Shown: positions 9,474 through 24,490, counted from the stretch's first letter. The stretch is 64,000 bases of DNA from Actinomycetota bacterium (GCA_030650795.1 JAUSDJ010000031.1:153123-217122), one strand, 5' to 3'. Numbers and translations: made by a program. Notes: generated from the sequence alone by a model not told the origin.

Positions 9474-10760
9474 CTACAGATTCACCCAACCGCGAGCGTT
9501 CTGACTCTGCGTGGAACCAAGCCGACCCTGGGTGTCGAGCAGCCGGGGGCTGGTCGCAAGCGCCTGCGGGATCAGATAGCAATCATGGGCTTGCAGCAGC
9601 ACTGCGCAATCAGCCAAGGCTGCAGCTGCGGGAAGGTCAACAGCCTTCGGCACCATCACCTCGTCAACGATCCACTCCTCTACGTAGGGATCATGAAACG
9701 TCACAAGCGCACCTTGCCTGCGCAGCTCCTGAAGCACGGCGATCGATGGGCTCTCGCGCAAATCGGCAATATTGGCTTTATAGGTGATGCCCAATAGCAG
9801 AACCGATGCCCCAGCGAGTTCGATCGATTCCTGATTCAACAGTTCCTGCAGCCGATGCACGACGTAGTTGGGCATGCTCGCGTTGATCTCTTGAGCCAAC
9901 TCGACAAATCGAAGACTCTGGCCCAGTTCGGTGCGCACCCGGTGGCCAAGGTAATTGGGATCAATGGGGATGCAGTGCCCACCGACGCCTGGGCCGGGCC
10001 GGAAGGCATGAAAGCCATAGGGCTTGGTCTCGGCGGCGGCAATGACATCCCAGAAGTCGATGCCCAGGAGATGGCTGACCTTGGCGAGCTCGTTGACCAA
10101 GGCAATGTTCACGTGGCGGTAGGTGTTCTCCAGCAGCTTGGCCATCTCAGCCTCTTTCAACCCCTTGGTGCGGACCACCTGCTCGGTCAAAGTCAGATAG
10201 AACTGCTCCGCCCGGTCCGCGCACTCAGTGCTGAAGCCACCGACAACCTTCGGTGTATTGCTGAAATTCCAGCGCCGATTGCCCGGATCAATCCGTTCCG
10301 GACTGAAGGCGAGCGAGAAGTCAACGGTTGCCTTAAACCCATTTCGCTCCAAGATCGGCTTCACGACCTCTTCAGTCGTACCGGGGTAGGTGGTGGATTC
10401 CAGCACCACCAATGGACGCTTGGCCGCATCGATATGACCAGCAATCATGGCCGTGGCGGCCTGAACAGCACGAAGATCTGGGCTGCCGTCGGCAGATAGC
10501 GGGGTTGGAACACAGATGATGAAAACATCAATGTCAGTCAGTTCATTGATGTCATTGGTGGGATGAAATCCTTGTCCGAGCCATTTCCCAACGAGGTCTG
10601 ACGCAATGTCATCGACATGGGATTCTCCAGCCGCTAAGCCGACGACAACCGCCTCATTGACATCGAAGCCCACGACCTGGTGCCCAGCCTCAATGCAGGC
10701 GCCAATCAGCGGCAGCCCGACATAGCCAAGACCGAACACGGCAATTCGCTGACCCACCAC
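9474..10760 (-). CDS. nucleotide-sugar dehydrogenase (UDP-glucose/GDP-mannose dehydrogenase family)
   Basis: IAVFGLGYVGLPL NAD-binding start, central GGHCIPIDP catalytic-Cys motif, length 428 aa. Confidence 0.85.
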   Translation of the reverse strand: MVGQRIAVFGLGYVGLPLIGACIEAGHQVVGFDVNEAVVVGLAAGESHVDDIASDLVGKWLGQGFHPTNDINELTDIDVFIICVPTPLSADGSPDLRAVQAATAMIAGHIDAAKRPLVVLESTTYPGTTEEVVKPILERNGFKATVDFSLAFSPERIDPGNRRWNFSNTPKVVGGFSTECADRAEQFYLTLTEQVVRTKGLKEAEMAKLLENTYRHVNIALVNELAKVSHLLGIDFWDVIAAAETKPYGFHAFRPGPGVGGHCIPIDPNYLGHRVRTELGQSLRFVELAQEINASMPNYVVHRLQELLNQESIELAGASVLLLGITYKANIADLRESPSIAVLQELRRQGALVTFHDPYVEEWIVDEVMVPKAVDLPAAAALADCAVLLQAHDCYLIPQALATSPRLLDTQGRLGSTQSQNARGWVNL

Positions 10761-10840: not shown

Positions 10841-12277
10841 TCACTTGATGGCTTCCGCAAAGGTCATGATCGTGCCCAACAGTTTGACATTGGCTTCGTC
10901 AAGCAGTCGCGCGGCGGACTCCAATTGCTTGCATGTGGTTCGCCCACGTCCCACAACGATCACCGCGCCATCGGCAATAGCGCCGATTACAGCAGCATCC
11001 GTACTCGACAGCAGCGGCGGAGCATTGATGATCACCAGATCCACTTGTGTTTTCAGATCAGCGAGCAGGAGCTCCATCTGCTCGGAGGCCAGAAGGGCAG
11101 TGGCATCGGCGAGATGAGGCCCGCGTGGAAGCACGCGCAGCGCGCCACGATGCCAAGTCAACTCGGCTTGACTCAAGGGCATAACTCCCGCGAGCACGTC
11201 GGGCAGCCCCACTTCAGAGTCAACGCCGAGATACGCCCCCAGTTTGGAATTATGCAAACACGCATCAATCAACATCACTGATCGTCCCGACTCAACAAAA
11301 CTCATTGCAAGATTCACTGCTGTGGCAGTTTTACCCGAGCCAGGGTTTGCACTAGTGATCACCACTGCGGCCGGGAAAACCTTTGACTGCTGAAGAGCTG
11401 CCTGACCAAGCGCCCGCTTGAGATGCTGTTCGATCTCGGGGCGAGGGGTCATCAAGATCTGATTGAAGGACCTCGAGGTTGACGCAATATGACCAAGATT
11501 CTCCGTGCGAAGACACTCCTGCAGATCAGCCTGGGTCTGGATCGGCGCTTGACCGCGCAACCGTGCCGGCAATCGGCTCTTGAGGCTGAATCCGGGCGAA
11601 TTGAACGCAGGCTCATTGAGCGCATCGTCCTGAGCGCCTGTCTCCATCGCATTGGCTACGAGTTGGCCTGCTTGAGCTATCGCGATGAAAGCCTCTGCCA
11701 GCGCTGTTGATGCATGGGCCACCTGATCAAGAGTTCCTCGATGATCAATATCCCCGTGACGATCCTCAATGTCGTCGTGCTGCGGATCCCAGGATGCGAG
11801 CATCCCTCGAGCTGCATCCATCTCAACCACAAGCCAACGAAGTCGATCGAGGGTGGAGTCCGGGAAAGGTTGCGCCCCTGGCGGTGTCGAACCGCTTGCA
11901 ACAAATTGAGCGACCCACGTCGCCAATCGAGCGGCCTGGCGAATCGTGAAGGTGTCTTGCCGGCTTGCCGGATCCATCCGAGCAATCCAAGCTCTCTGAG
12001 TTCGATCAGCCGTCAGCAGCAAATCTGCTCGCTTCAGCAATGCCGGGGTGAGTTGCCGCGAATCGCCAATCGCTCCAGCAAGGCCAACGTAACTTGCTGC
12101 TTGCGGGCACATCGCGTCACCGACCGCGGCAAACGTACCAGCCCAACTCACGTGGACCGCAGGACGAAGCGCAACAAGGGCACTGCGCATCACGCTTGCA
12201 GCCAGCGGCGAACGGCAGACGTTCGCCGAACAAGCAACTAGCACCTCGAAGGATTCCTGCACACGCAATCTTCCCAC
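10841..12277 (-). CDS. fusion of LMW phosphotyrosine phosphatase domain and BY-kinase-like P-loop ATPase domain
   Basis: N-terminus VLVACSANVCRSP is the CX5R(S) PTP loop. C-terminal domain has Walker A SANPGSGKTATAVNLA, Walker A'-like VMLIDACLH and Walker B-like DLVIINAPP. Confidence 0.7.
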   Translation of the reverse strand: MGRLRVQESFEVLVACSANVCRSPLAASVMRSALVALRPAVHVSWAGTFAAVGDAMCPQAASYVGLAGAIGDSRQLTPALLKRADLLLTADRTQRAWIARMDPASRQDTFTIRQAARLATWVAQFVASGSTPPGAQPFPDSTLDRLRWLVVEMDAARGMLASWDPQHDDIEDRHGDIDHRGTLDQVAHASTALAEAFIAIAQAGQLVANAMETGAQDDALNEPAFNSPGFSLKSRLPARLRGQAPIQTQADLQECLRTENLGHIASTSRSFNQILMTPRPEIEQHLKRALGQAALQQSKVFPAAVVITSANPGSGKTATAVNLAMSFVESGRSVMLIDACLHNSKLGAYLGVDSEVGLPDVLAGVMPLSQAELTWHRGALRVLPRGPHLADATALLASEQMELLLADLKTQVDLVIINAPPLLSSTDAAVIGAIADGAVIVVGRGRTTCKQLESAARLLDEANVKLLGTIMTFAEAIK

Positions 12278-12339: not shown

Positions 12340-12804
12340 GTGCTCATCCCCGTCCTCAACCCATTGTTCATTGAGAACGCCCGAAGCATCATGGATCCTG
12401 CTTGGCCGATTTCGTTTGAAATTCACGACTTTGTCCAAGCCGCACTTCCTCATCAATACTCCGCGGTCTACGCCTTGGATGTCCTGGAACACATTGAACC
12501 GCGCGATGAGTTCGATTTTCTCTCGAATTTGGTGGCCTCATTGGTGGACGATGGAATAGCGGTCATCGGCATGCCGAGCATTGAAAGCCAACCCCACGCG
12601 AATCCCGCCAGTCGTGACGGCCACGTCAATTGCAAGTCGGGGCCTGATTTGAAGGAATGCCTCCGGACTCACTTCCAGCAAGTCTTCGTTTTTTCTACGA
12701 ACGATGAGGTGATCCACACGGGGTATCCCCCGATGGCCCACTATTTGCTGGCTCTTTGCGTCGGTCCTATTCGCACCTGTTGGCCAGTGCTGCCAGGACT
12801 CTAG
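12340..12804 (+). CDS. truncated class I methyltransferase-like protein (possible gene remnant)
   Basis: Contains only post-motif-I regions (YSAVYALDVLEHIEP, DDGIAVIGMP). No GxGxG motif in any frame upstream. The ORF track start (12094) overlaps the convergent-strand gene, so the internal GTG 12340 is used. Start is very uncertain. Confidence 0.35.
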   Translation: MLIPVLNPLFIENARSIMDPAWPISFEIHDFVQAALPHQYSAVYALDVLEHIEPRDEFDFLSNLVASLVDDGIAVIGMPSIESQPHANPASRDGHVNCKSGPDLKECLRTHFQQVFVFSTNDEVIHTGYPPMAHYLLALCVGPIRTCWPVLPGL

Positions 12805-13805: not shown

Positions 13806-15836
13806 GTGATTGCAGACACCAGCAATCCGGTCCTGATTGCGCCCAACACTTACTGGGTCGGCGTCAATGACCATCCGCTGGGGCTTCAGTGCAACCCATA
13901 TCTGATCCTTGACGGTGATGATGCTGTGTTGATCGATCCGGGGTCAGTCCTCGACTTCGAGTATGTGCGCGCCCAGGTGGAGAAGCTGATCCCAATCAGC
14001 AGCATCAGCACGATCGCACTGAGCCATCAGGACCCTGACCTCTGTTCAAGTGTGACGCTGTTCGAGCGCGCTGGGTTCGAGGGGCACATTGCCACGCACT
14101 GGCGGGCATCGGTTCTCCAGCGCTATTACGGCATCACCTCGCCGTTCTACCTGGTCAATGAGCATCAGTACGCGCTGACGCTGCGGTCGGGCAAGGTCAT
14201 CGAATTCATCCCAACCCCTTACTTGCACTTCCCCGGTGCAGTAGCCACGTTCGATCCGCAGACCAGGGTCCTGTTCTCGGGGGATCTCTTCGGCGCCTTC
14301 TCGACCCACTGGTCCTTTCGCGCCGACAAGTCAACCTATATCGAGGGCATGAAAGCGTTCCACGAGCATTACATGCCCAGCAACGACAACATCCGGCCGG
14401 TGATGGAAATGCTGCTGGCGATGGACATCGACGTCATCGCGCCTCAGCATGGATCCATCATTGATGCCGACATCGCGGACTACATCGTTGCCCTCCGGGA
14501 GCTTGAGTGCGGCACGATGCTCAATCCGATACGGCACGAGCTTGCCGCCTCAGGCGGATTCACCAGCATCGTCGAGCAGGTGATCCGCAGGTTGCAAGGG
14601 CTCTACCAGGCGGACGAGGTGCTCGGCGTCGTGCAGCACATGGAGATGACGATTGATCCTGGAACCTTGACGATTGGGGAATTTTCCTACACCGGCGTGG
14701 AACTGTGGAATGCCCTGTTCCAGACCATGGCTGATGCGGGGAAGCAGTCCTGGCTGACGGCGGTTGAGCCATTGGTCCGCAAGCTCGCAGCCGAGTACGA
14801 CATCGAGATGCCCCAGTACTACCTGAACGAGCGATCGACAACCCAGGTTCGCATCGACCAGCTTGCCCAAGAGATCGACAGTCTGCGCGCGCTCAATGTC
14901 CGCCTGGACACCACGCTGCGCGAATCGGAGGACAAGCTCACCAGATGCCCGCTGACAGGCCTTCGGAATGAGCGCTTCTTCACCGAATTCCTGCCGGCGA
15001 GCGTTGCGCAGGCCGAGGCCGCGGGCCAGGACCTCACCTTGGTCTATGTCGGAGCAGACCGCATCGCTGACGTGACCTATGCACGAGGCAAGCAGGCAGG
15101 CGATGAGGTCATCAAGAGCGTGGGTTACCTGCTTGAGCGGGGATTGGAGCGAAATGAGCAGCTGTTCCGCCTCGATGGCCCCAACTTCGTGCAGATGCTC
15201 ATCGAGGTGTCCGGCGAGCGAGCCGTGCTGACCCGAGTCGAGCGCATCCGTCGCGAGGTTGCCATGTCCACGATCTCACTGGATCCCCTGACGGTCTCCA
15301 TCGGGACGGTATCCCTAAGCGAGGCGCGCACCCATCAGCCAGACCCAGCCGAGCATGCATCGCTCATGGCCCGAACTGGACTGCTGCGTCTTCGTGTCGC
15401 GAGCAATCGCGGCGGCGACACCATCTGCTCGACATCGGACATCGAGCATCCGTCCACCTCGGCCGGAACGATTGTGATCGCCGACCCGGATCCGGTGAAT
15501 ATCGACGTGCTCACGACTGCGCTGCAGGCCATGAACTTCGAGACAATCGGTTGCTCAGATGGGCTTCAAGCGCTTCAGGCGATCGAGCATGGGTCCATCA
15601 GTGTCGTCATCGCCGAGGCGGTCTTGCCGAAACTCGATGGTTTCGCGTTGCGCGAGGCGCTGTCGTCGGCGTCTGCCTTCAGGGAGCTGCCGTTCCTCAT
15701 GATGGGATACGAGAAGGACGCCGAGACAGTCGCTCGCGCCCAGAGCCTGGGGATCAACCACTTCTTCAAGAAGCCATACCTGCTGTCCGAACTGGTCGGC
15801 ACTGTGCGTCTTGAGCAGCGACCGCGTCTGAGATGA
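13806..15836 (+). CDS. di-iron (FDP/ODP-like MBL-fold) sensor with degenerate GGDEF domain and pseudo-receiver domain
   Basis: N-terminus: SHQDPD, LHFPGA, LFSGDLFG, APQHGSII (flavodiiron-like lactamase-fold motifs). Coiled-coil linker. GGDEF fold with RLDGPNF in place of RxGGDEF. C-terminal receiver fold with VVIAEAVLPKLDG (Glu at the Asp position), LMMGYE and FFKKPY. Confidence 0.8.
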   Translation: MIADTSNPVLIAPNTYWVGVNDHPLGLQCNPYLILDGDDAVLIDPGSVLDFEYVRAQVEKLIPISSISTIALSHQDPDLCSSVTLFERAGFEGHIATHWRASVLQRYYGITSPFYLVNEHQYALTLRSGKVIEFIPTPYLHFPGAVATFDPQTRVLFSGDLFGAFSTHWSFRADKSTYIEGMKAFHEHYMPSNDNIRPVMEMLLAMDIDVIAPQHGSIIDADIADYIVALRELECGTMLNPIRHELAASGGFTSIVEQVIRRLQGLYQADEVLGVVQHMEMTIDPGTLTIGEFSYTGVELWNALFQTMADAGKQSWLTAVEPLVRKLAAEYDIEMPQYYLNERSTTQVRIDQLAQEIDSLRALNVRLDTTLRESEDKLTRCPLTGLRNERFFTEFLPASVAQAEAAGQDLTLVYVGADRIADVTYARGKQAGDEVIKSVGYLLERGLERNEQLFRLDGPNFVQMLIEVSGERAVLTRVERIRREVAMSTISLDPLTVSIGTVSLSEARTHQPDPAEHASLMARTGLLRLRVASNRGGDTICSTSDIEHPSTSAGTIVIADPDPVNIDVLTTALQAMNFETIGCSDGLQALQAIEHGSISVVIAEAVLPKLDGFALREALSSASAFRELPFLMMGYEKDAETVARAQSLGINHFFKKPYLLSELVGTVRLEQRPRLR

Positions 15837-18715
15837 CAGCCCTAAGTGAGACTGCCGTACTGCTGCTAGCTGTCGCGTCGATGCTGGCGTGCGCGGCGGC
15901 GGTGCTGGCCACGGTGCTGGCCAAGGCATCGCGGACGCGCCGCATGCGCGTGCAGCGGCAGTTGGAGCACGAGATCTCGCGCCTTGAACCCGGGGATGCG
16001 TTCGCCGCTCCAAAGAGCCAAACTCGTGAGGTCCTTGCTGCCTACGTCGATGTGCGTCAGTCCGCGACCCTGTCCCCGCTGACGGTCGAGGGAGTGCGAG
16101 CATGGCTTGTTGACCAGGGCGTGGAGCGGGTACTGATCCGCAAACTCGGTTCGCGGCGTGCCATTCGGCGTGTTGAGGCGGCGACCGCGCTCGGCTACCT
16201 GCCCGGTGACTCGGTGCGGCAGGCTCTTGTCGATGCCCTGGGGCGTGAACAGCGCGACACTGTGCGGCTGCGGATCGCCGTTGCCCTGCATCAGGTGGAC
16301 CCGGATGCGAGCGTGGCGATCCTCTTGGACAGCATCCTGAGCGCGAGCGAGTGGATTGCGGTTCGTGCCAAGGGCTTACTGTTGGAGGCAGGGCGATCGT
16401 TCTACCTCATTGCGCGCACCATGCTCGCGACCACAGAGACGCGTCTCACCGGCATCCTCATCGACTTCGCGGCCGTGTATCCCGCCACGGACCTGCGCGA
16501 TTTCCTCGTTGCCCGCGTATGGTCGAAGGACGCGGACGTCTCCATTCACGCGGCCCAGGCATTGCGGGCTATGTATCCATCGATAATCGCGGACGAGCGT
16601 TACATGGATCACCCGCTCTGGCAGGTGCGGGCCAATGCCTATGGGGCCTTGGCCAGCACACCGAGCCGTCGAACTCTGGAGCGCCTCCTCGCGCGCACAT
16701 CCGATATGGCTCAGGCGAGCTCCTGGGCGCGAGCGACTCCAGATTACGACCTGGAGTTCGCCGAGTTGCAGGTTGCGGCAGCCAATCTCCTGCGCACTCA
16801 GCCGAGCCTTCTGCCGACCGTTGCCGAGGCGTTCGTTTCCACTGACGTCCCCGAGTACCGGAGTGCCCTGGCGTCGCTGCTCTCCTCACGAATCCAGTAC
16901 TACTTCATGCAACTGATTGGCCCCGACGCCGATGCCGCGCGCGCGATCGTGCGCGCGATCGTGGCCTCAGGCAGGAGCAGTGAGCTGATCGGCTTCTTGA
17001 ATCGCAATCGCAATGTGGAGCTCGAGAACGAGGTCCTTGCATGCATCCAGCCCCTGCTTGAAGCAAGTCCGCAACTGGTGCAGGAGCTGGAGTGGTATCT
17101 CGCGCCGAGGATCCTGGACAAGATCGGCCTCGAAGAGCGCAGTCGCGCCACACCGCCAAGAGTGGAGCAACGCGTCAAGTCGAAGATCGTGCGGATGTAC
17201 GCCCTGCTGGTCGTTGCGCTGCTGGCCTTCCCACTTGCGTTCTGGCTGCTCAACCGCTCGGAGTTCGGTGTGCTCTCTCCACTGGACCTGCTGCGCGAGT
17301 ACGTGACCGCGTGGAACTCGGCTCTGCTGGTGTACATCGCTGCGCTGCAGGTGGCGACTCTCGCCATCCTGGTCTTCGCCGTCATCGGCGTGCGTGCGCA
17401 AGCCAGATCCTGGCGGGCCAAGCCGTACTCGCTGCTGTTTCGTCCCAAGGTGCTGCCGTCAGTCTCGATCGTGGCCCCAGCCTTCAATGAGGAGTCGACG
17501 ATCGTTGAGAGCGCGAGTTCCCTGCTGGGCATCCAGTATCCCGATTTTGAGCTAATCATCGTGAATGACGGTTCCCGCGATGCCACCATGGAGCGACTCA
17601 TCGAGCACTTCGAGCTCGAGAAGGTGGATCGCACGATCCCAACGACCCTGGCGACCAAGGCCGTGCGCGGCATCTACGCCAGTCCCGCGGTCCCGCAGCT
17701 GCTCGTGGTTGACAAAGACAATGGAGGCAAGGCCGACTCCCTGAATGCTGGGATCAACATGAGTACCAAGGAGTACTTTTGCGGCATCGATGCAGACTCG
17801 CTGCTCGAGTCCGACTCGATGCTCAAGGTCGCTGCTGGGTGCCTGGATTCGGTCGACGAGATGGTGGCCGCGGGCGGGAACGTGTTCCCGATCAACGGCT
17901 GTACGGTCGAGCGCGGCGCCCTTGTCAAGGTCGGCCTGGCACGCTCGCCATTGGCGCGGTTCCAGACCATCGAGTACATCCGGGCCTTCATGGCAGGTCG
18001 CGTCGGCTGGGCCTATGTGAAGTCGCTCTTGATCATCTCGGGGGCCTTTGGGCTGTTCCGCAAGGAGCGCGTGATCCAGGCGGGCGGGTACTTGACCGAA
18101 TCGGGTCCTTACCGCCAGGACACCGTCGGTGAGGACATGGAATTGGTCGTCCGCCTGCGACGCGAGATGATCGAGTCGGGTATCCCCCACCAGATCAACT
18201 ACGCCTACAACGCAAACTGCTGGACCGAGGTGCCCGAGACCATCTCTACGCTGCATCGTCAGCGCGACCGCTGGCAGCGCGGACTGGTCGACATACAGTT
18301 CCTGCACCGCAGGCTGCTGCTGAACCCGAGATACAAGTCCACCGGTCTTATCGGGATGCCGTACTACTTCGTGTTCGAGCTGTTTGGCCCGTTGATTGAG
18401 GCGCAGGGGTACATCATGCTCATCCTCGCGGCAATCACTGGGCTGCTTGAGCCGGCAATGGCGATTGCGCTGTTCACGACGATCGTGCTCTGGGGAATCC
18501 TCGTCTCGACCCTGTCGCTGTACATCGCGGAACTCCAAACCAGCTATTTCACTCGACGCGAGATCGCCACCATGCTCTGGTACGCAGTCCTGGAGAATTT
18601 TGGCTTCCGGCAGCTCGCGAGCCTGTGGCGCGTCTCGGGGTTCTTCAGTTCACTGCGCCGACCACGAGGGTGGGGTGAGATGCGCCGCAAGGGGTTTGCA
18701 GTTGCCGCCCAGTGA
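15833..18715 (+). CDS. HEAT-repeat domain fused to GT2 processive polysaccharide synthase (PgaC/IcaA/cellulose-synthase-like)
   Basis: ATGA start/stop overlap with the upstream sensor gene. N-terminal TM helix, then about 430 aa of HEAT/PBS-lyase-like repeats (e.g. RRVEAATALGYLPGDSVRQALVDALG). TM pair, then GT2 core (IVNDGSRD, DKDNGGKADSLN, GIDADS, GAFGLFRKE, QRDRWQRG) and C-terminal TM helices. Confidence 0.8.
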   Translation: MTALSETAVLLLAVASMLACAAAVLATVLAKASRTRRMRVQRQLEHEISRLEPGDAFAAPKSQTREVLAAYVDVRQSATLSPLTVEGVRAWLVDQGVERVLIRKLGSRRAIRRVEAATALGYLPGDSVRQALVDALGREQRDTVRLRIAVALHQVDPDASVAILLDSILSASEWIAVRAKGLLLEAGRSFYLIARTMLATTETRLTGILIDFAAVYPATDLRDFLVARVWSKDADVSIHAAQALRAMYPSIIADERYMDHPLWQVRANAYGALASTPSRRTLERLLARTSDMAQASSWARATPDYDLEFAELQVAAANLLRTQPSLLPTVAEAFVSTDVPEYRSALASLLSSRIQYYFMQLIGPDADAARAIVRAIVASGRSSELIGFLNRNRNVELENEVLACIQPLLEASPQLVQELEWYLAPRILDKIGLEERSRATPPRVEQRVKSKIVRMYALLVVALLAFPLAFWLLNRSEFGVLSPLDLLREYVTAWNSALLVYIAALQVATLAILVFAVIGVRAQARSWRAKPYSLLFRPKVLPSVSIVAPAFNEESTIVESASSLLGIQYPDFELIIVNDGSRDATMERLIEHFELEKVDRTIPTTLATKAVRGIYASPAVPQLLVVDKDNGGKADSLNAGINMSTKEYFCGIDADSLLESDSMLKVAAGCLDSVDEMVAAGGNVFPINGCTVERGALVKVGLARSPLARFQTIEYIRAFMAGRVGWAYVKSLLIISGAFGLFRKERVIQAGGYLTESGPYRQDTVGEDMELVVRLRREMIESGIPHQINYAYNANCWTEVPETISTLHRQRDRWQRGLVDIQFLHRRLLLNPRYKSTGLIGMPYYFVFELFGPLIEAQGYIMLILAAITGLLEPAMAIALFTTIVLWGILVSTLSLYIAELQTSYFTRREIATMLWYAVLENFGFRQLASLWRVSGFFSSLRRPRGWGEMRRKGFAVAAQ

Positions 18716-20393: not shown

Positions 20394-21191
20394 CTAGTTC
20401 TGGCAGACCTTTTCGATGGCTTTTATCCCCTCAATATCGCCGCTTCCGATCTGCCGATCGACCGGCAAATTGGTATCTAGGTACCTGAACATGACATTGC
20501 TGGGATCGTCGCTGTCTGCAAGACCCAGTGCGTGGCCAAGTTCATGCATGAAGAGCAATCGACGGTCGAAACTGTTTGTTCTGACTAGATAGTCCGTGCT
20601 GACTGCGATATAGCCATTGACGATCTCCTTGCTGCCTGCAAACACTCGACTTGGCGATCCATACCCGACGACGTTCTTTGTGATGATCGACGATTTCGAG
20701 TCGGGAACAAAGTACACGGCAATATTGCGACTAATGTCCTTGACGGGCTTGACCGTGGTGGTCGCATCGTTGTAGGAGACCGCTAGTTCTCCACCATCGG
20801 CAAAGGTCAGCCCCGATGCCTTCGCCCAAGCATCGAAGGCCGCCCCAAGGTCGGGGCGCACGACGGCTGCCTGTTTAGGTGTCAGGTTCGACGTGTCCGT
20901 CGTCCACGAGATGGGAGCCGAGCAGGTGGCCCAACCACTGCCAGCGAATGCCGCATCGGTGTAGATGGAGCCCACACGGGTTGTCCCCCACGCAAGCACG
21001 CTCGTGGCTGCGACGGCTGCAATCGTGCACAACACGGTTATCAATGGGCGCCGCCGATAGGTGAGACGGTAGTGGCGTTCGTATTTGAACCATGTCCGCC
21101 GGCGAGTAATACCGTCATCGAAATAGTCACGCGCACGGCGCAATGGGTGACTCGGATTCCTCCGCTCGTGGCCCAGCGGTGACTCAGACAT
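20394..21191 (-). CDS. membrane-anchored zinc metalloprotease (matrixin/snapalysin-like, HEXXHXXGXXD)
   Basis: HELGHALGLADSDDPSNVMF zinc-binding motif with Asp as third ligand and a Met-turn candidate. N-terminal TM helix LITVLCTIAAVAATSVLAWG. Confidence 0.65.
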   Translation of the reverse strand: MSESPLGHERRNPSHPLRRARDYFDDGITRRRTWFKYERHYRLTYRRRPLITVLCTIAAVAATSVLAWGTTRVGSIYTDAAFAGSGWATCSAPISWTTDTSNLTPKQAAVVRPDLGAAFDAWAKASGLTFADGGELAVSYNDATTTVKPVKDISRNIAVYFVPDSKSSIITKNVVGYGSPSRVFAGSKEIVNGYIAVSTDYLVRTNSFDRRLLFMHELGHALGLADSDDPSNVMFRYLDTNLPVDRQIGSGDIEGIKAIEKVCQN

Positions 21192-21728: not shown

Positions 21729-23438
21729 GTGCGTCATGTTCCACGCGCTTCTGATGAGTCGCACGTCACGGAGCTGTTGACGATCATGCAACGCGGGAGC
21801 GGAGGCGGGCTCTATGACCCGTCGGAGAAGCCCGTCGAACTTGACGATGGAGTCTGGTGGGTCGGAGTGCGGCTTTTCGACAACACTTTCCAATGTCATG
21901 CGTACCTCATTGAAAACGGCACGGATTCGGTGCTGATCGACCCGGGTTCCAATGTCACGATTGATGGTGTCCTGGCGAAGGTTCGACAAGTCATGCCACT
22001 GGAGAACATCAAATATCTCGTGTGTCATCACGCCGACCCGGACGTGTGCTCATCACTGCACGATCTGACTGGCATTCTCAAGCGTGACGACGTCCAGGTC
22101 ATCACTGAGTGGCGAGCACGGGAATTACTTGACCATTACGGTCACCGGTTTCCGTACTACCTGCTTGAGGACCACGCTTGGCGCCTTCCGCTCGCAGGCG
22201 ATCGCGAACTCCAGTTCCAACTCACCCCGTACCTACATTTTCCCGGAGCTTTCGTAAGTTTCGACACGCACACCCGTACCCTCTTCTCGGCTGATCTGTT
22301 CGGCGGCTTCGTTCCGGATTCCAATATTCTCATCGGGACCGATCTTGAATACATTCTCGAGGCGGCTCGCCCATTCCATCAGCACTACATGCCGAGCCGT
22401 CAACTGCTTGAATTGGGGCTCACTCGCATCCAGCAGCACTGGCCAAACATTGCTCGCATAGCGCCGCAGCATGGGCACGTCATCGAAGGCGAACTCGTGC
22501 AGCCGGCCTTCGAGGGGCTCAAGCAGTTGGAGTGCGGAATCTTTACTCTCTCCGACGCGGATCTTGATCTTCAACACCTCATGCGCCTGAGCGAAAGCAG
22601 GGCGCACATCCTGCAAGCACTGCTCGAAGCACATTCCCCCAGGGATCTCGTTGCACACATCAACCGAATCCTTCATGACATTCAAATTGCTGCTCAAGTC
22701 GTCCTTCGGCTCTTCCTGCCAGACGAACGCCAGTGGGTGGAATGGGGGGTCGAGGGCGCCAAGACAGTGCACAGTGGGACGCATCGAGGTTGGACCACGA
22801 TCCCGCTAGACGGCATGCCTAAGGCGAATCTCCTAGTAAGCGGGCGCGACGGTGACCCGCTCGACAAAGACTTCACATCGATGCTGGATGCGATGGCGGC
22901 AATCATTCGCCCAACGGTCGAGCAGTATCTGGCCGAGCGGCGACTCCACCAAGAGGCTGAGACCGACCAGTTGACGGGGTTGGGAAATCGTCGAGCGCTG
23001 GAACTGGTCATCCCGGCGGATCGCTACTGTGTCGTGGCAATGGACGTGGATCACTTCAAGCGAGTCAACGACGAATTCGGGCATCCGACTGGGGATCGAG
23101 TGCTGCAAAGGGTTTCCGCGGCTGTTCGCAATACGGCCCGATCCGGGGATGGGGTATTTCGCACTGGAGGTGAGGAGTTCCTTGTCTATTTGCCTAGGGC
23201 GACAAAGGAAGCGGCTTTTCGCGCGGCCGAGCGCATTCGCGCTGCTGTGTCATCCCTCGATCTCACAGGTGAGGCTCCTGGAGGCCACGTCACTCTCAGC
23301 GCTGGCATCGCCGAACTTGAGCGCAGTGATGCCGGTCGCCTCGACGACGTCATGTTGCATGCAGACGAGGCGCTCTATCGAGCCAAGCGTGGAGGACGCA
23401 ACCAAATATCGGTCTACCCGACCACGACGCCGAACTGA
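21729..23438 (+). CDS. di-iron (FDP/ODP-like) sensor diguanylate cyclase (intact GGEEF and I-site)
   Basis: GGAGG 7 nt before GTG 21729. CHHADPD, LHFPGA, LFSADLFG and APQHGHVI motifs are paralogous to ORF 13806. C-terminal GGDEF domain has VAMDVDHFKRVNDEFGH and RSGDGVFRTGGEEF. Confidence 0.85.
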   Translation: MRHVPRASDESHVTELLTIMQRGSGGGLYDPSEKPVELDDGVWWVGVRLFDNTFQCHAYLIENGTDSVLIDPGSNVTIDGVLAKVRQVMPLENIKYLVCHHADPDVCSSLHDLTGILKRDDVQVITEWRARELLDHYGHRFPYYLLEDHAWRLPLAGDRELQFQLTPYLHFPGAFVSFDTHTRTLFSADLFGGFVPDSNILIGTDLEYILEAARPFHQHYMPSRQLLELGLTRIQQHWPNIARIAPQHGHVIEGELVQPAFEGLKQLECGIFTLSDADLDLQHLMRLSESRAHILQALLEAHSPRDLVAHINRILHDIQIAAQVVLRLFLPDERQWVEWGVEGAKTVHSGTHRGWTTIPLDGMPKANLLVSGRDGDPLDKDFTSMLDAMAAIIRPTVEQYLAERRLHQEAETDQLTGLGNRRALELVIPADRYCVVAMDVDHFKRVNDEFGHPTGDRVLQRVSAAVRNTARSGDGVFRTGGEEFLVYLPRATKEAAFRAAERIRAAVSSLDLTGEAPGGHVTLSAGIAELERSDAGRLDDVMLHADEALYRAKRGGRNQISVYPTTTPN

Positions 23439-23635: not shown

Positions 23636-24490
23636 TCAGCTAGCAGTAAGACGCTCAGCCGAGTCAACAACATTGGCCAGCAGCATGGCTCGCGTCATGG
23701 GGCCGACGCCGCCCGGATTTGGCGCAAAGAAGTCAGCGACTTCCATGACATCAGGATGAATGTCGCCAACAAGACCTGCATCGGTGCGGGTGATGCCAAC
23801 GTCTAACACCGTAGCTCCCGTGCGAACGAGATCGGGAGTGATCATGTGTGGTACGCCAGCTGCCGCAACGATGATGTCGGCCTGACGAAGAAAGGCGCCA
23901 ACTTCACGCGTTCCCGTATGACAAAGGGTCACCGTTGAGTTCTCCGAACGACGAGTCAGCAGCAGGCCAAGCGGACGACCCACCGTGATGCCACGGCCAA
24001 CGACAACAACATGCGCGCCTTCAATTTCGACCGCATACGTGCGAAGCAACTCAACGATGCCGCGTGGAGTGCAGGGCAGCGGTGCGGCAACTCCTAGAAC
24101 GAGGCGGCCAAGGCTCATCGGGTGCAAACCATCGGCATCCTTCAGCGGATCCATCAGCTCAAGCACGCGATTGGCGTCCAGATGCTTGGGCAGCGGCAAC
24201 TGCACGATGTAGCCTGTCACAGCTGGATCCAAGTTCAGCCGAAGGATTTCCGACTCCAGCTCAGCCTGCGTAGTTGAGGCAGGAAGGTCAACGCGGACCG
24301 AGGCGATGCCCACTTCCTGGCAATCTCGGTGCTTGCCGCGCACATATGTCTGACTGCCTGGATCATCACCCACGAGAACAGTGCCTAACCCAGGAGTGAT
24401 CCCACGGGCGCGCAGAGCATCGACCCGTATCTTCAGTTCGCCTTTGATTCGTGCCGAGGTTGCCTTGCCATCCAGTATCTGTGCGGTCAC
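23636..24490 (-). CDS. folD: bifunctional methylenetetrahydrofolate dehydrogenase / methenyltetrahydrofolate cyclohydrolase
   Basis: Full-length match to the FolD pattern: [10 protein letters not shown]..., [37 protein letters not shown]. Confidence 0.95.

What the first reader, a model, noticed from the sequence alone, without database searches (positions are those of the whole stretch)
10841..12277. Single-polypeptide LMW-PTP + BY-kinase-like ATPase with degenerate kinase motifs and no tyrosine cluster
Seen:
- The N-terminal ACSANVCRSP phosphatase loop is fused, via about 150 aa of unknown sequence, to a CpsD/Wzc-type P-loop domain.
- Walker A is intact (GSGKT).
- Walker A' is VMLIDACLH, where DxDxR is expected.
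- Walker B is LVIINAPP, where hhhhDxxP is expected (Asp to Asn).
- The C-terminus (...GTIMTFAEAIK) has no Tyr cluster.
- No Wzz/CapA-like transmembrane activator is adjacent.

Established: BY-kinases and their cognate LMW-PTPs are normally separate proteins that jointly control polysaccharide polymerisation and export.

Inference: the fusion may be a pseudokinase scaffold carrying its own phosphatase, or an ATPase with a new role.
Basis: partly seen in the sequence, partly recalled or inferred. Interest (0 to 1): 0.6.

Follow-up and report, generated by a model that had tools for sequence, protein, structure and literature searches.

The report
Tyrosine phosphatase fused to dead BY-kinase
One gene in an uncultured actinobacterium joins an apparently working tyrosine phosphatase to a bacterial tyrosine-kinase domain that has lost its catalytic and self-phosphorylation features; this rare arrangement, with related genomes showing intermediate stages, shows how a kinase–phosphatase pair can turn into a phosphatase with a non-catalytic kinase-like partner.

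Summary
Window 10841–12277 (−) is one uninterrupted ORF, conserved as a single gene in about 10 independent assemblies. It has three parts:
- an extended LMW-PTP (res ~10–204; CX5R-S and D-loop Asp invariant);
- a short variable linker (~205–248), not "150 aa of unknown sequence";
- a complete BY-kinase catalytic-domain fold (~249–472) with a built-in activator-like strand.

Against 130 nearest BY-kinases:
- Walker B Asp is 130/130 in BY-kinases but Asn in 8/8 family members.
- The ExxRxxR arginines and the residue after DxDxR are lost, and there is no Tyr tail.
- Walker A GKT is kept.
- The DxD→DxC change is private to the window protein.

Only one 50 %-identity cluster among 1.84 billion representatives has this fusion. 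Relatives form a series:
1. extended PTP plus canonical Wzz-BY-kinase;
2. PTP plus a translationally coupled, membrane-anchored, fully dead kinase-like gene;
3. the fusion;
4. PTP alone.

A UDP-ManNAc-type sugar dehydrogenase follows the fusion in 8/8 loci. This enzyme class includes CapO, a BY-kinase substrate. No canonical BY-kinase, Wzz or Tyr-cluster partner lies in the 64 kb.

Best reading: an active phosphatase tethered to a BY-pseudokinase that may still bind nucleotide, within a glycan-biosynthesis locus. It is a new variant of a known kind.

The parts
10841..12277 (-). Whole fusion ORF (478 aa including the upstream GTG; the likely true start is the GTG at 12262, giving 473 aa; stop codon at 10841-10843)
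   Evidence: continuous ORF; identical 473-aa protein P0001 in an independent assembly; orthologues start at MQ[ED]SF
11666..12250 (-). Extended LMW-PTP domain (residues ~10-204)
   Evidence: Pfam LMWPc E 1e-9. Standalone ~200-aa homologues match profile positions 1-197. A profile of this subfamily hits YwlE, AmsI, Wzb and Mtb PtpA at E 2e-19 to 1e-15. The AF2 model is confident over 10-204.
12209..12232 (-). Phosphatase P-loop C16-S-A-N-V-C-R22-S23 (the CX5R[S/T] motif)
   Evidence: Invariant in all fused and standalone members
11798..11935 (-). Subfamily-specific helical insertion in the PTP domain (residues ~115-160)
   Evidence: Present in all 12 extended PTPs and absent from solved LMW-PTPs, whose alignments stop at 'FTLRQ'. 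Modelled as helices 112-127 and 142-156.
11753..11773 (-). D-loop D169-I-E-D172-R-H174-G175; D172 is the inferred general acid
   Evidence: D172, H174 and G175 are invariant in 12/12. Distant members read the canonical 'DVPDPH'. The loop precedes the final helix 180-212. This is an inferred assignment.
11534..11665 (-). Variable, probably disordered inter-domain linker (residues ~205-248)
   Evidence: 23 % mean pairwise identity; pLDDT below 50. This is also where the gene is split in L011 and L009.
10862..11533 (-). BY-kinase catalytic-domain fold (residues ~249-472), judged catalytically dead
   Evidence: phmmer against BceF, Etk, VpsO, Wzc and CapB gives E 6e-20 to 3e-12. Foldseek top hits are Etk, Wzc, BceF and CapAB, E 1e-13. 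pLDDT is 90-97 with the deeper alignment.
11480..11503 (-). Built-in activator-like strand (residues 259-266, 'ENLGHIAS'), equivalent to the CapA C-terminal strand betaA
   Evidence: Aligns with the canonical 'LGxIP[FY]D' motif. Predicted as strand 260-265. The aromatic position is Ser in 8/8 family members (tentative).
11414..11437 (-). Degenerate oligomerisation motif: E281-I-E-Q284-H-L-K287-R (canonical ExxRxxR)
   Evidence: Glu kept in 8/8. The first Arg is R in 118/130 BY-kinases versus Q6/R1/D1 in the family. The second Arg is R in 123/130 versus K4/Q3/R1.
11327..11350 (-). Walker A: A-N-P-G-S-G-K316-T317 (intact GK[ST])
   Evidence: G315, K316 and T317 are invariant in the family. The 'GEGK' Glu typical of BY-kinases (118/130) is Ala or Ser here.
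11252..11278 (-). Walker A': V-M-L-I-D338-A-C340-L-H342 (canonical hhhhDxDxR)
   Evidence: D338 is invariant. C340 (codon TGT) occurs only in the window protein; 7/7 orthologues and 128/130 BY-kinases have Asp. The Arg is R in 128/130 BY-kinases versus R4/H4 in the family.
11015..11038 (-). Walker B: L-V-I-I-N418-A-P-P (Asp replaced by Asn; codon AAT at 11024-11026)
   Evidence: Asn in 8/8 family members, plus L007 and L008; Asp in 130/130 nearest BY-kinases.
10844..10861 (-). Six-residue C-terminal tail 'FAEAIK' where a Tyr cluster would be
   Evidence: family tails are 3-11 aa with 0 Tyr; 127/130 BY-kinases have at least 1 Tyr, mostly 2-6.
9474..10760 (-). Conserved downstream neighbour: NDP-sugar dehydrogenase closest to UDP-ManNAc dehydrogenases (Cap5O/WecC type)
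   Evidence: Follows the fusion in 8/8 loci. TIGR03026 at 411 bits. PDB hits 4r16 and 3ojl (Cap5O), E 5e-62 and 2e-57.

Best explanation
The gene encodes a two-module regulatory protein of a glycan-biosynthesis locus.

**N-terminal module (shown by sequence).** It is a catalytically competent low-molecular-weight phosphotyrosine phosphatase of an actinobacterial 'extended' subfamily. It has the Cys16 nucleophile, Arg22, Ser23 and the inferred general acid Asp172. It also carries a ~45-aa helical insertion and a conserved Cys57.

**C-terminal module (shown by sequence and fold).** It is a BY-kinase catalytic domain that includes its own juxtamembrane activator-like strand.
- Lost: the Walker B Asp (an invariant Asn), the oligomerisation arginines, the residues that clamp a substrate tyrosine, and the C-terminal tyrosine cluster.
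- Lost in this particular protein only: the proposed catalytic base (Asp340 to Cys).
- Kept: the P-loop Lys/Thr and the first Walker A' Asp.

**Inferred mechanism.**
- The module can no longer autophosphorylate or form the canonical octameric ring, and it is not a tyrosine kinase. It may still bind nucleotide.
- It acts as a pseudokinase. It keeps the ancestral kinase-domain surface that LMW-PTPs dock on, and that BY-kinases use to engage sugar-nucleotide dehydrogenases.
- In this way it positions or gates the fused phosphatase.
- The most likely sphere of action is the always-adjacent UDP-ManNAc-type dehydrogenase and the surrounding glycan pathway. Phosphate would be put on targets by some other kinase.

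**Origin.** The fusion arose from an adjacent PTP / BY-kinase gene pair. Related genomes preserve the stages: the canonical pair, then PTP plus a membrane-anchored dead kinase, then the fusion, then PTP alone.
For: **Single gene.** One continuous ORF is conserved at 52-62 % identity in about 10 independent assemblies.

**PTP catalytic residues.**
- CX5R-S, D172, H174 and G175 are invariant in fused and standalone members.
- The PTP core is the most conserved region, at 0.77 mean identity.

**Kinase hallmarks lost family-wide.**

| Feature | Nearest BY-kinases | Family |
|---|---|---|
| Walker B | Asp 130/130 | Asn 8/8 |
| O-motif first Arg | R 118/130 | R 1/8 |
| O-motif second Arg | R 123/130 | R 1/8 |
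| R/K after DxDxR | 114/130 | 0/8 |
| C-terminal Tyr | at least 1 Tyr in 127/130 | 0 Tyr in 8/8 |

**Roles of those residues in CapB (PMC2422856).**
- D79 is the proposed catalytic base.
- D77, D79 and D157 organise the Mg2+ waters.
- R81 and the ExxRxxR helix form the octamer interface.
- K82 and the PP of Walker B sandwich the substrate Tyr.

**Fold.** Confirmed by Foldseek and by a confident model that includes a betaA-like strand at 260-265.

**Split relative L011.**
- Gene order is FolD, a 202-aa PTP, a 259-aa TM-anchored BYK-like protein starting 2 nt after the PTP stop, the dehydrogenase and an ABC exporter.
- Its Walker A is destroyed and its Walker B Asp is His.
- L009 is similar.

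**Other stages.**
- Ancestral state in L012: extended PTP next to a canonical Wzz-BYK with a rich Tyr tail.
- PTP alone in L018 and L021.

**Divergence from L011.** Kinase-like half 34 % identical and PTP 43 %, against dehydrogenase 70 % and FolD 85 %.

**Dehydrogenase neighbour.** It follows the fusion in 8/8 loci. CapO, a homologue, is a BY-kinase substrate (PMC3795738).

**Precedents.**
- BY-pseudokinases exist: EcpK and HfsB (PMC12004946).
- Wzb docks on the Wzc catalytic core independently of the Y-cluster (PMC9245664).
Against: - **No biochemistry.** Asn can still hydrogen-bond a Mg2+-bound water. GKT and D338 are invariant, and DxD is intact in 7/8 members of the fused clade. Residual ATPase or kinase activity in the orthologues is therefore not excluded.
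- **No binding partner shown.**
- **Known site absent.** The CapO phosphosite Tyr89 falls in a 2-residue gap in the window's dehydrogenase, so the best-known regulatory site is missing.
- **Synteny may be inherited.** Adjacency to the dehydrogenase is seen only within one fairly narrow clade and could reflect shared ancestry rather than function.
- **Docking surface changed.** The element Wzb uses to dock on Wzc is the O-motif helix, and that helix is remodelled here.
- **D172 is inferred.** HMMER alignments to solved PTPs stop before the insertion, so the assignment rests on motif and topology.
- **No canonical kinase found.** None was found that could supply phosphotyrosine. Only 64 kb plus flanks of the relatives could be searched.
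Confidence: 0.6

Rival explanations
1. **Active, non-canonical kinase or ATPase with a built-in reset.** The P-loop domain still binds and turns over ATP, with Asn418 hydrogen-bonding the Mg2+ water. It phosphorylates other proteins in trans, for example the neighbouring dehydrogenase. It needs no Tyr cluster or octamer. The fused PTP reverses the mark, giving a one-polypeptide phosphorylation switch.
For: - Walker A GKT and D338 are invariant, and DxD is intact in 7/8 orthologues.
- The domain includes a built-in activator-like strand.
- The P-loop domain is under purifying selection: 58 % identity against 23 % in the linker.
- BY-kinases phosphorylate UDP-sugar dehydrogenases (PMC3795738).
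Against: - Walker B Asp is 130/130 in real BY-kinases and never Asn.
- The window protein also lacks the proposed catalytic base.
- The residue equivalent to CapB K82, which clamps the substrate Tyr, is lost.
- The split relative has destroyed Walker A yet keeps the same gene neighbourhood.
- The CapO Tyr89 site is absent from the dehydrogenase.
- A covalently attached phosphatase would create a futile cycle.
Confidence: 0.2
2. **Decaying relic.** The kinase-like half has no function of its own. It is an evolutionary leftover on its way to being lost, and only the phosphatase matters.
For: - Some related lineages keep the PTP alone.
- The kinase-like half diverges fastest: 34 % identity, against 70-85 % for its neighbours.
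- Different motifs are lost in different lineages.
Against: - The domain is intact and confidently folded (pLDDT 90-97).
- It is 58 % identical across the clade, with invariant GKT, D338 and N418 and a family-specific conserved helix, E281-I-x-x-H-L-x-R-x-L.
- No frameshifts or truncations occur in about 10 orthologues.
- An invariant Asn looks like a selected state rather than drift.
Confidence: 0.12
3. **ParA/MinD-type ATPase.** The C-terminal half is a positioning or assembly ATPase like BcsQ in cellulose systems, not BY-kinase-derived. It would serve the neighbouring GT2 synthase.
For: - Pfam ParA, CbiA and MipZ hits, and weak MinD and BcsQ hits.
- A c-di-GMP-linked GT2 synthase lies 3.5 kb away.
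- Arg sits at the 'signature lysine' position in 6/8 orthologues.
Against: - BY-kinase models and structures score far better: E 1e-33 and 6e-20, against 1e-13 and 8e-9.
- The domain has the BY-kinase-specific xPP Walker B extension, the DxDxR context and the juxtamembrane LGxI strand.
- There is no KGGxxGK motif, and the window protein has Asn at the signature position.
- The GT2 synthase is not conserved next to the fusion in other loci.
Confidence: 0.04
4. **Artefact.** The ORF would really be two genes joined by an assembly or sequencing error, or a chimeric contig.
For: Related genomes do encode the two halves as separate genes.
Against: - The ORF is continuous in the window.
- An identical protein occurs in an independent assembly.
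- Full-length single ORFs are found in about 10 contigs from Logan, ENA, NCBI, JGI and GTDB genomes.
Confidence: 0.01

Closest known systems
BY-kinase / LMW-PTP pairs (E. coli Wzc/Wzb, Etk/Etp; S. aureus CapAB with CapC; B. subtilis TkmA-PtkA-PtpZ-Ugd operon)
   Same: - Same two protein folds.
- Same kind of genomic setting: a polysaccharide locus with an adjacent UDP-sugar dehydrogenase.
- The kinase domain retains Walker A, the first Walker A' Asp, the xPP extension and a juxtamembrane activator-like strand.
- Distant relatives of the PTP sit next to a canonical Wzz-BY-kinase (L012).
   Different: - The two activities are on one polypeptide.
- There is no Wzz/PCP or transmembrane part.
- Walker B Asp is Asn, and the O-motif arginines are lost.
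- There is no Tyr cluster, and in this protein no catalytic base either.
- It scores below the NCBIfam cutoffs for BY-kinase families.
BY-pseudokinases EcpK (Myxococcus xanthus) and HfsB (Caulobacter), and the GumC-type 'pseudo-BY-kinase' (PMC12004946, PMC9800525)
   Same: - A BY-kinase fold lacking catalytic residues and the Tyr-rich tail.
- Encoded in polysaccharide loci.
- Proposed to act through protein-protein contacts rather than phosphorylation.
   Different: - EcpK and HfsB lack all Walker motifs and work with a PCP-2 partner that has no kinase domain.
- Here Walker A is intact, no PCP-2 or Wzz is nearby, and the domain is covalently fused to an apparently active phosphatase.
- The split relative in L011 is closer to EcpK, with Walker A gone, but it is anchored by a single TM helix.
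CapB1 / PtkB-type inactive BY-kinase paralogues (PMC3795738)
   Same: Kinase-like proteins that do not phosphorylate and have been discussed as pseudokinases.
   Different: They keep canonical motifs and a Tyr cluster, pair with a CapA/TkmA-type modulator and are not fused to a phosphatase.
Standalone 'extended' actinobacterial LMW-PTPs (~200 aa; P0047, P0048, P0050, P0116 and others)
   Same: - Same CX5R-S loop and invariant Cys57.
- Same ~45-aa insertion and D-x-H-G D-loop.
- 37-44 % identical to the window's N-domain.
   Different: They are not fused. Their neighbours range from a canonical Wzz-BYK to a dead kinase-like gene to none.

Membership tests
BY-kinase (Wzc/CapB/Etk type) | P-loop catalytic-domain fold of the BY-kinase type | tested here: met
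   phmmer against BceF, Etk, VpsO, Wzc and CapB gives E 6e-20 to 3e-12. Foldseek top 50 are all BY-kinases, E about 1e-13. pLDDT is 90-97.
BY-kinase (Wzc/CapB/Etk type) | Walker A GxxxxGK[ST] | tested here: met
   PGSGKT; G315, K316 and T317 are invariant in the family.
BY-kinase (Wzc/CapB/Etk type) | Walker A' hhhhDxDxR (the second Asp is the proposed catalytic base) | tested here: not met
   The window reads IDACLH. Asp is present in 128/130 BY-kinases and in 7/7 orthologues. The Arg is R4/H4 in the family against 128/130. Residue roles are from PMC2422856.
BY-kinase (Wzc/CapB/Etk type) | Walker B hhhhD[TSA]PP | tested here: not met
   VIINAPP. Asn in 8/8 family members (10/10 counting L007 and L008) against Asp in 130/130.
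BY-kinase (Wzc/CapB/Etk type) | C-terminal tyrosine cluster | tested here: not met
   The tail is 'FAEAIK'. Family tails are 3-11 aa with 0 Tyr; 127/130 BY-kinases have at least 1 Tyr.
BY-kinase (Wzc/CapB/Etk type) | Oligomerisation motif ExxRxxR | tested here: not met
   E281-xx-Q284-xx-K287. The two arginines are each present in only 1/8 family members, against 118/130 and 123/130.
BY-kinase (Wzc/CapB/Etk type) | Transmembrane activator: a fused Wzz/PCP domain or an adjacent CapA/TkmA-type gene | tested here: not met
   No TM segment (maximum KD19 of 1.56). No Wzz or BYK hit anywhere in the 64 kb, and neighbours carry no Wzz Pfam domain. A juxtamembrane-like strand is built in.
BY-kinase (Wzc/CapB/Etk type) | Curated family score cutoffs (NCBIfam TIGR01007, TIGR03018) | tested here: not met
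   94.5 bits against a cutoff of 108.05; 113.9 bits against 230.65.
BY-kinase (Wzc/CapB/Etk type) | Tyrosine autophosphorylation or trans-phosphorylation activity | not testable with these tools
   Needs a [gamma-32P]ATP or anti-pTyr assay.
LMW-PTP (Wzb/YwlE/PtpA type) | Pfam LMWPc above the gathering score | tested here: met
   39.1 bits against 23.2. The subfamily profile hits solved LMW-PTPs at E 2e-19.
LMW-PTP (Wzb/YwlE/PtpA type) | Active-site loop C-X5-R-[ST] near the N-terminus | tested here: met
   C16-SANVC-R22-S23, invariant in all fused and standalone members.
LMW-PTP (Wzb/YwlE/PtpA type) | General-acid Asp in the D-loop (canonical DPYY) | tested here: inconclusive
   D172-x-H-G is invariant in 12/12, and distant members read 'DVPDPH'. 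The loop sits before the last helix in the model. HMMER alignments to solved PTPs end before the insertion, so there is no direct residue-to-residue alignment.
LMW-PTP (Wzb/YwlE/PtpA type) | Phosphotyrosine phosphatase activity and pTyr versus pArg specificity | not testable with these tools
   The best PDB hits include the arginine phosphatase YwlE. The window has Val at the position of YwlE Thr11. That this position decides specificity is from my own recollection and was not checked here.
BY-pseudokinase (EcpK/HfsB type) | BY-kinase fold lacking catalytic residues and the Tyr tail | tested here: met
   The match is only partial, because Walker A is retained here whereas EcpK lacks all Walker motifs.
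BY-pseudokinase (EcpK/HfsB type) | Cognate PCP-2 partner that lacks a kinase domain | tested here: not met
   No Wzz or PCP in the 64 kb, nor in the flanks of 8 orthologous loci.
ParA/MinD ATPases | Deviant Walker A KGGxxGK[ST] with the signature lysine | tested here: not met
   The window reads SANPGSGKT. MinD and ParA models score far below BY-kinase models.
LMW-PTP-type arsenate reductase (ArsC) | Best match to ArsC models or structures | tested here: not met
   No ArsC NCBIfam hit at E of 1 or below. The subfamily profile hits ArsC at 7e-7, against 2e-19 for PTPs. The resolving-Cys pattern was not examined.

The most novel reading that the evidence does not exclude
The fused P-loop domain is a nucleotide-sensing pseudokinase that allosterically gates the attached phosphatase. 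Together they form a self-contained, membrane-independent switch. It would control the adjacent UDP-ManNAc-type dehydrogenase, and hence precursor supply for a cell-envelope glycan, without any BY-kinase, PCP or Tyr cluster. That would be a regulatory logic not described for bacterial tyrosine-phosphorylation systems.
Probability: 0.15. Interest if true: 0.7.

Novelty: new variant of a known kind. Interest (0 to 1): 0.55.

Why it matters
BY-kinases and LMW-PTPs are the core regulators of bacterial capsule and exopolysaccharide assembly. BY-pseudokinases were recognised only recently (EcpK, 2025).

This locus adds two things.
- **A natural covalent 'Rosetta-stone' fusion of the two partners.** It argues that the phosphatase–kinase-domain contact remains useful after catalysis and the Tyr cluster are gone.
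- **A graded evolutionary series within related genomes.** The stages are the canonical pair, then PTP plus a membrane-anchored dead kinase, then the fusion, then PTP alone.

The series frames a concrete question: what does the phosphatase act on once its cognate kinase is dead? It also points to a candidate, the always-adjacent sugar-nucleotide dehydrogenase.

The invariant Walker B Asn, with Walker A retained, offers a defined mutational handle (N418D, with or without C340D). It could be used to test what separates a BY-kinase from a BY-pseudokinase.

The clade is narrow and uncultured, so the immediate impact is limited to specialists.

Tried and rejected
1. **Adenine-reading Asn (CapB N211 equivalent, residue 472) as a further lost feature.** Rejected. 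Thr is also present in 36/130 real BY-kinases.
2. **CapO Tyr89 conservation as support for the dehydrogenase being a substrate.** The site falls in a 2-residue gap. The dehydrogenase link therefore rests only on adjacency and on the enzyme class.
3. **Tyrosine depletion of the fusion (2 Tyr in 478 aa) as a special signature.** Rejected. BY-kinase catalytic domains (1.05 %) and standalone PTPs are also Tyr-poor.
4. **A separate Tyr-cluster carrier or second BY-kinase/Wzz in the window.** None found. The best Tyr-rich stretch lies in an unrelated 885-aa soluble protein.
5. **Other PTP–BYK fusions among two-stretch hits of the exhaustive search.** All were tandem BY-kinase domains without LMWPc.
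6. **Literature search for PTP–BY-kinase fusions.** Nothing found.
7. **ABC exporter homologue in the window.** Absent, although it is present beside the module in L002, L003, L004, L007 and L011.
9. **N-terminal half of the second AF2 model.** It is spoiled by misaligned Wzz sequences.
10. **Profile alignment of the extended PTP to solved PTPs across the D-loop.** Alignments stop at the insertion.
Full report
**1. What is in the sequence**

Window 10841..12277 (minus strand) is one uninterrupted ORF of 478 codons from a GTG. An identical protein in an independent assembly, and all orthologues, start five codons later (GTG at 12262, 'MQESF…'). The real product is therefore probably 473 aa. Residue numbers below use the 478-aa frame.

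Profile searches place two domains.
- Pfam LMWPc covers residues 12-113 (39.1 bits, gathering 23.2).
- ParA/AAA_31-type P-loop models cover residues 305-471.
- NCBIfam's BY-kinase models (TIGR03018, TIGR01007, Wzc, Etk, EpsG) are by far the best hits for residues 285-472, at E 6e-33 to 1e-18. All are below their curated cutoffs.
- phmmer against the PDB aligns residues 291-472 to BceF, Etk, VpsO, Wzc and CapB (E 6e-20 to 3e-12). It aligns residues 7-116 to YwlE, Wzb, AmsI and other LMW-PTPs.

**2. The motif calls survive proper alignment**

In the pairwise alignments with solved kinases:
- 'SANPGSGKT' aligns with Walker A;
- 'LIDACLH' aligns with 'LIDAD[ML]R';
- 'LVIINAPP' aligns with 'VVLIDSPP' and 'LVIVDTPP'.

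I then aligned the family with the 130 nearest BY-kinase representatives from an exhaustive profile search and tabulated columns.

| Feature | Nearest BY-kinases (n = 130) | Family (n = 8) |
|---|---|---|
| Walker B | Asp 130/130 | Asn 8/8 (also in two further genome copies) |
| Walker A' second Asp | Asp 128/130 | Asp 7/8; Cys (TGT, two substitutions from GAY) only in the window protein |
| Walker A' Arg | Arg 128/130 | R 4, H 4 |
| Residue after DxDxR | R/K 114/130 | never basic |
| Glu of 'GEGK' | 118/130 | Ala or Ser |
| ExxRxxR motif | first Arg 118/130; second Arg 123/130 | Glu kept 8/8; each Arg 1/8 |
| C-terminal tail | at least 1 Tyr in 127/130, mostly 2-6 | 3-11 residues, no Tyr |

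According to the CapB structure paper (PMC2422856), these are the functional residues.
- The second DxD Asp is the proposed base that deprotonates the substrate Tyr.
- The three Asp residues organise the Mg2+ waters.
- The Arg of DxDxR and the ExxRxxR helix make the octamer contacts.
- K82 and the PP of Walker B sandwich the incoming tyrosine.

G315, K316, T317 and D338 remain invariant.

**3. The '150 aa of unknown sequence' resolves into known parts**

The exhaustive search returned standalone ~200-aa proteins matching profile positions 1-197 at E 4e-54 to 1e-40. They share four features:
- the C-[ST]-A-N-[VI]-C-R-S loop;
- an invariant Cys57;
- a ~45-aa insertion ('…TLRQAA…G.LP.GAP.LP…RL.WLV.E[ML]DAARG…');
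- a 'D-[IV]-x-D-x-H-G' loop, which in the more distant members reads the canonical 'DVPDPH'.

The first AF2 model is confident across residues 10-204. It puts two helices in the insertion and a long terminal helix after the D-loop.

On the other side, Wzz-BY-kinases match the profile from position ~238 onward. With a deeper alignment, the model of the C-terminal half reaches pLDDT 90-97. It predicts a β-strand at 260-265 ('NLGHIA') and a helix at 280-294. The strand aligns with the canonical juxtamembrane 'LGxIP[FY]D' motif, the counterpart of the CapA C-terminal strand that completes the CapB sheet. The aromatic position, equivalent to CapA F221 which stacks on adenine, is Ser in 8/8 family members. 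I treat that last point as tentative.

The genuine linker is about 205-248, with 23 % pairwise identity and pLDDT below 50. There is no transmembrane segment.

**4. How common is the fusion?**

- A word-indexed search of 5.8 billion proteins found only 8 full-length relatives at 52-100 % identity. All come from metagenomes or Actinomycetota MAGs.
- The exhaustive HMM search of 1.84 billion 50 %-identity representatives found a single cluster with the full-length architecture.
- Every 'two-stretch' hit was a tandem BY-kinase-domain protein without a phosphatase.
- Scans of GTDB genomes and JGI metagenomes added four more copies.
- No paper describing such a fusion was found.

Caveat: a very divergent fusion scoring below about 150 bits would not appear in the 150 hits listed.

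**5. Genomic context**

In 8 of 8 loci the fusion gene is followed on the same strand by a 427-428-aa NDP-sugar dehydrogenase. It follows directly, or after one opposite-strand methyltransferase gene.

The dehydrogenase passes TIGR03026. Its nearest characterised relatives are UDP-ManNAc dehydrogenases, including S. aureus Cap5O (E 2e-57). CapO is phosphorylated by CapB2 on Tyr89 (PMC3795738). That Tyr lies in a 2-residue gap in the window's protein.

An MsbA/PglK/HepA-like ABC exporter lies next to the dehydrogenase in five related loci but is absent from the window.

The window's flanks carry sugar-nucleotide enzymes and glycosyltransferases on one side. On the other side are an ODP–GGDEF–REC protein, a 960-aa HEAT+GT2 synthase and a GT4.

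No Wzz, second BY-kinase or Tyr-cluster ORF exists in the 64 kb.

**6. An evolutionary series**

| Stage | Locus | Arrangement | Calls |
|---|---|---|---|
| a | L012 | Extended PTP next to a fully canonical 501-aa Wzz-BY-kinase (SEAFRTIRTNL, AEGKST, ETDLRK, VIVDTAP, 'YGYRYGGYRYGYGYAYGYGGY') | 54, 69 |
| b | L011 | FolD, PTP (202 aa), 259-aa gene starting 2 nt after the PTP stop, dehydrogenase, ABC exporter | 53, 55, 56, 61, 62 |
| b | L009 | Similar split arrangement with a 4-nt overlap | 47, 49, 52 |
| c | Window clade | The two halves fused, with no TM helix | sections 1-5 |
| d | L018, L021 | The PTP stands alone near the dehydrogenase and an M10 peptidase, with no kinase-like gene | 73, 75, 76 |

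L011 comes from a close relative: its FolD is 85 % identical and its dehydrogenase 70 % identical to the window's. The 259-aa protein there has these features:
- one N-terminal TM helix;
- a BY-kinase-like domain, 34 % identical to window residues 281-455 (E 2e-26) and matching TIGR01007 at E 7e-25;
- Walker A destroyed ('GAHESKEYAK');
- Walker B Asp replaced by His;
- no Tyr cluster.

The kinase-like half (34 %) and the PTP (43 %) diverge much faster than their neighbours. Within the fused clade, however, the PTP core is the best-conserved region (0.77) and the P-loop domain is clearly constrained (0.58).

**7. Interpretation**

Shown by sequence and fold:
- the fusion is real;
- the PTP catalytic residues are intact;
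- the kinase domain has the right fold;
- the kinase domain lacks five to six BY-kinase hallmarks family-wide, and the window copy lacks the catalytic base as well.

Inferred:
- It cannot autophosphorylate or form the canonical ring, and it is not a tyrosine kinase.
- It may still bind nucleotide.
- It serves to position or gate the phosphatase.

This fits two precedents. BY-pseudokinases exist as a class (EcpK, HfsB; PMC12004946). Wzb also docks on the Wzc catalytic core without needing the Tyr cluster (PMC9245664).

The adjacent dehydrogenase is the most plausible functional partner, but only on the basis of conserved adjacency and enzyme class.

The main rival is that Asn418 is tolerated and the orthologues with DxD intact retain some kinase or ATPase activity. 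Sequence alone cannot exclude this, and I give it about 0.2.

**8. Verdict**

Its pseudokinase interpretation is the best-supported one.

The protein fails the membership test for BY-kinases. It is only a partial match to the EcpK-type pseudokinases: Walker A is retained, there is no PCP-2 partner, and it is fused to a PTP. It passes the test for LMW-PTPs.

I classify it as a new variant of a known kind. It is rare and phylogenetically narrow. It is of moderate specialist interest, mainly because the graded series in related genomes makes the fate of a phosphatase after 'death' of its kinase experimentally approachable.

Noticed in passing
window 13806-18715 (+) and 21729-23438 (+): An ODP (di-iron, oxygen-binding type) + GGDEF + receiver protein overlaps by 4 nt a 960-aa HEAT-repeat + GT2 processive synthase. 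A second ODP-GGDEF protein lies 3 kb further on. This looks like a gas/redox-sensing c-di-GMP module coupled to an exopolysaccharide synthase.
   Followed up: no
window 36970-39627 (+): An 885-aa soluble protein with no Pfam family, flanked by a GT1-like gene. It came up only because of a locally Tyr-rich C-terminal stretch, which is not a BY-kinase-type Tyr cluster.
   Followed up: partly
P0049, P0052, P0087, P0100, P0139 (database proteins, 840-925 aa): Among the nearest BY-kinase representatives are proteins with two tandem BY-kinase P-loop domains in one polypeptide, some with an N-terminal Wzz domain.
   Followed up: no
window residue 57 (nt 12107-12109) and alignment A4: Cys57 ('MC') is invariant in all 12 extended LMW-PTPs, fused or standalone. 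It sits where canonical LMW-PTPs have an acidic 'AD/PD'. It could be a redox or substrate-specificity determinant of this subfamily.
   Followed up: no
window residue 311 (nt 11345-11347); orthologues P0002, P0004-P0008: Six of eight orthologues have Arg at the position of the ParA/MinD 'signature lysine', five residues before the Walker A Lys. Canonical BY-kinases have a hydrophobic residue there. The window protein has Asn.
   Followed up: no
window 20394-21191 (-); L018 754-1461; L021 3854-4561: A secreted matrixin-type (M10) metalloprotease recurs close to the extended PTP. It is adjacent to the standalone PTP in two marine or aquatic contigs and lies 8 kb from the fusion in the window.
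   Followed up: no
window 23636-24490 (-); L005, L009, L011, L014, L015: FolD (methylene-THF dehydrogenase/cyclohydrolase) lies immediately upstream of the PTP or fusion in five related loci, but 11 kb away in the window. This indicates an insertion or rearrangement of the GGDEF/GT2 block in this genome.
   Followed up: partly
window 12340-12804 (+): A 154-aa ORF divergent from the fusion gene has no family hit. In other loci a Methyltransf_24 gene sits beside the fusion instead.
   Followed up: no
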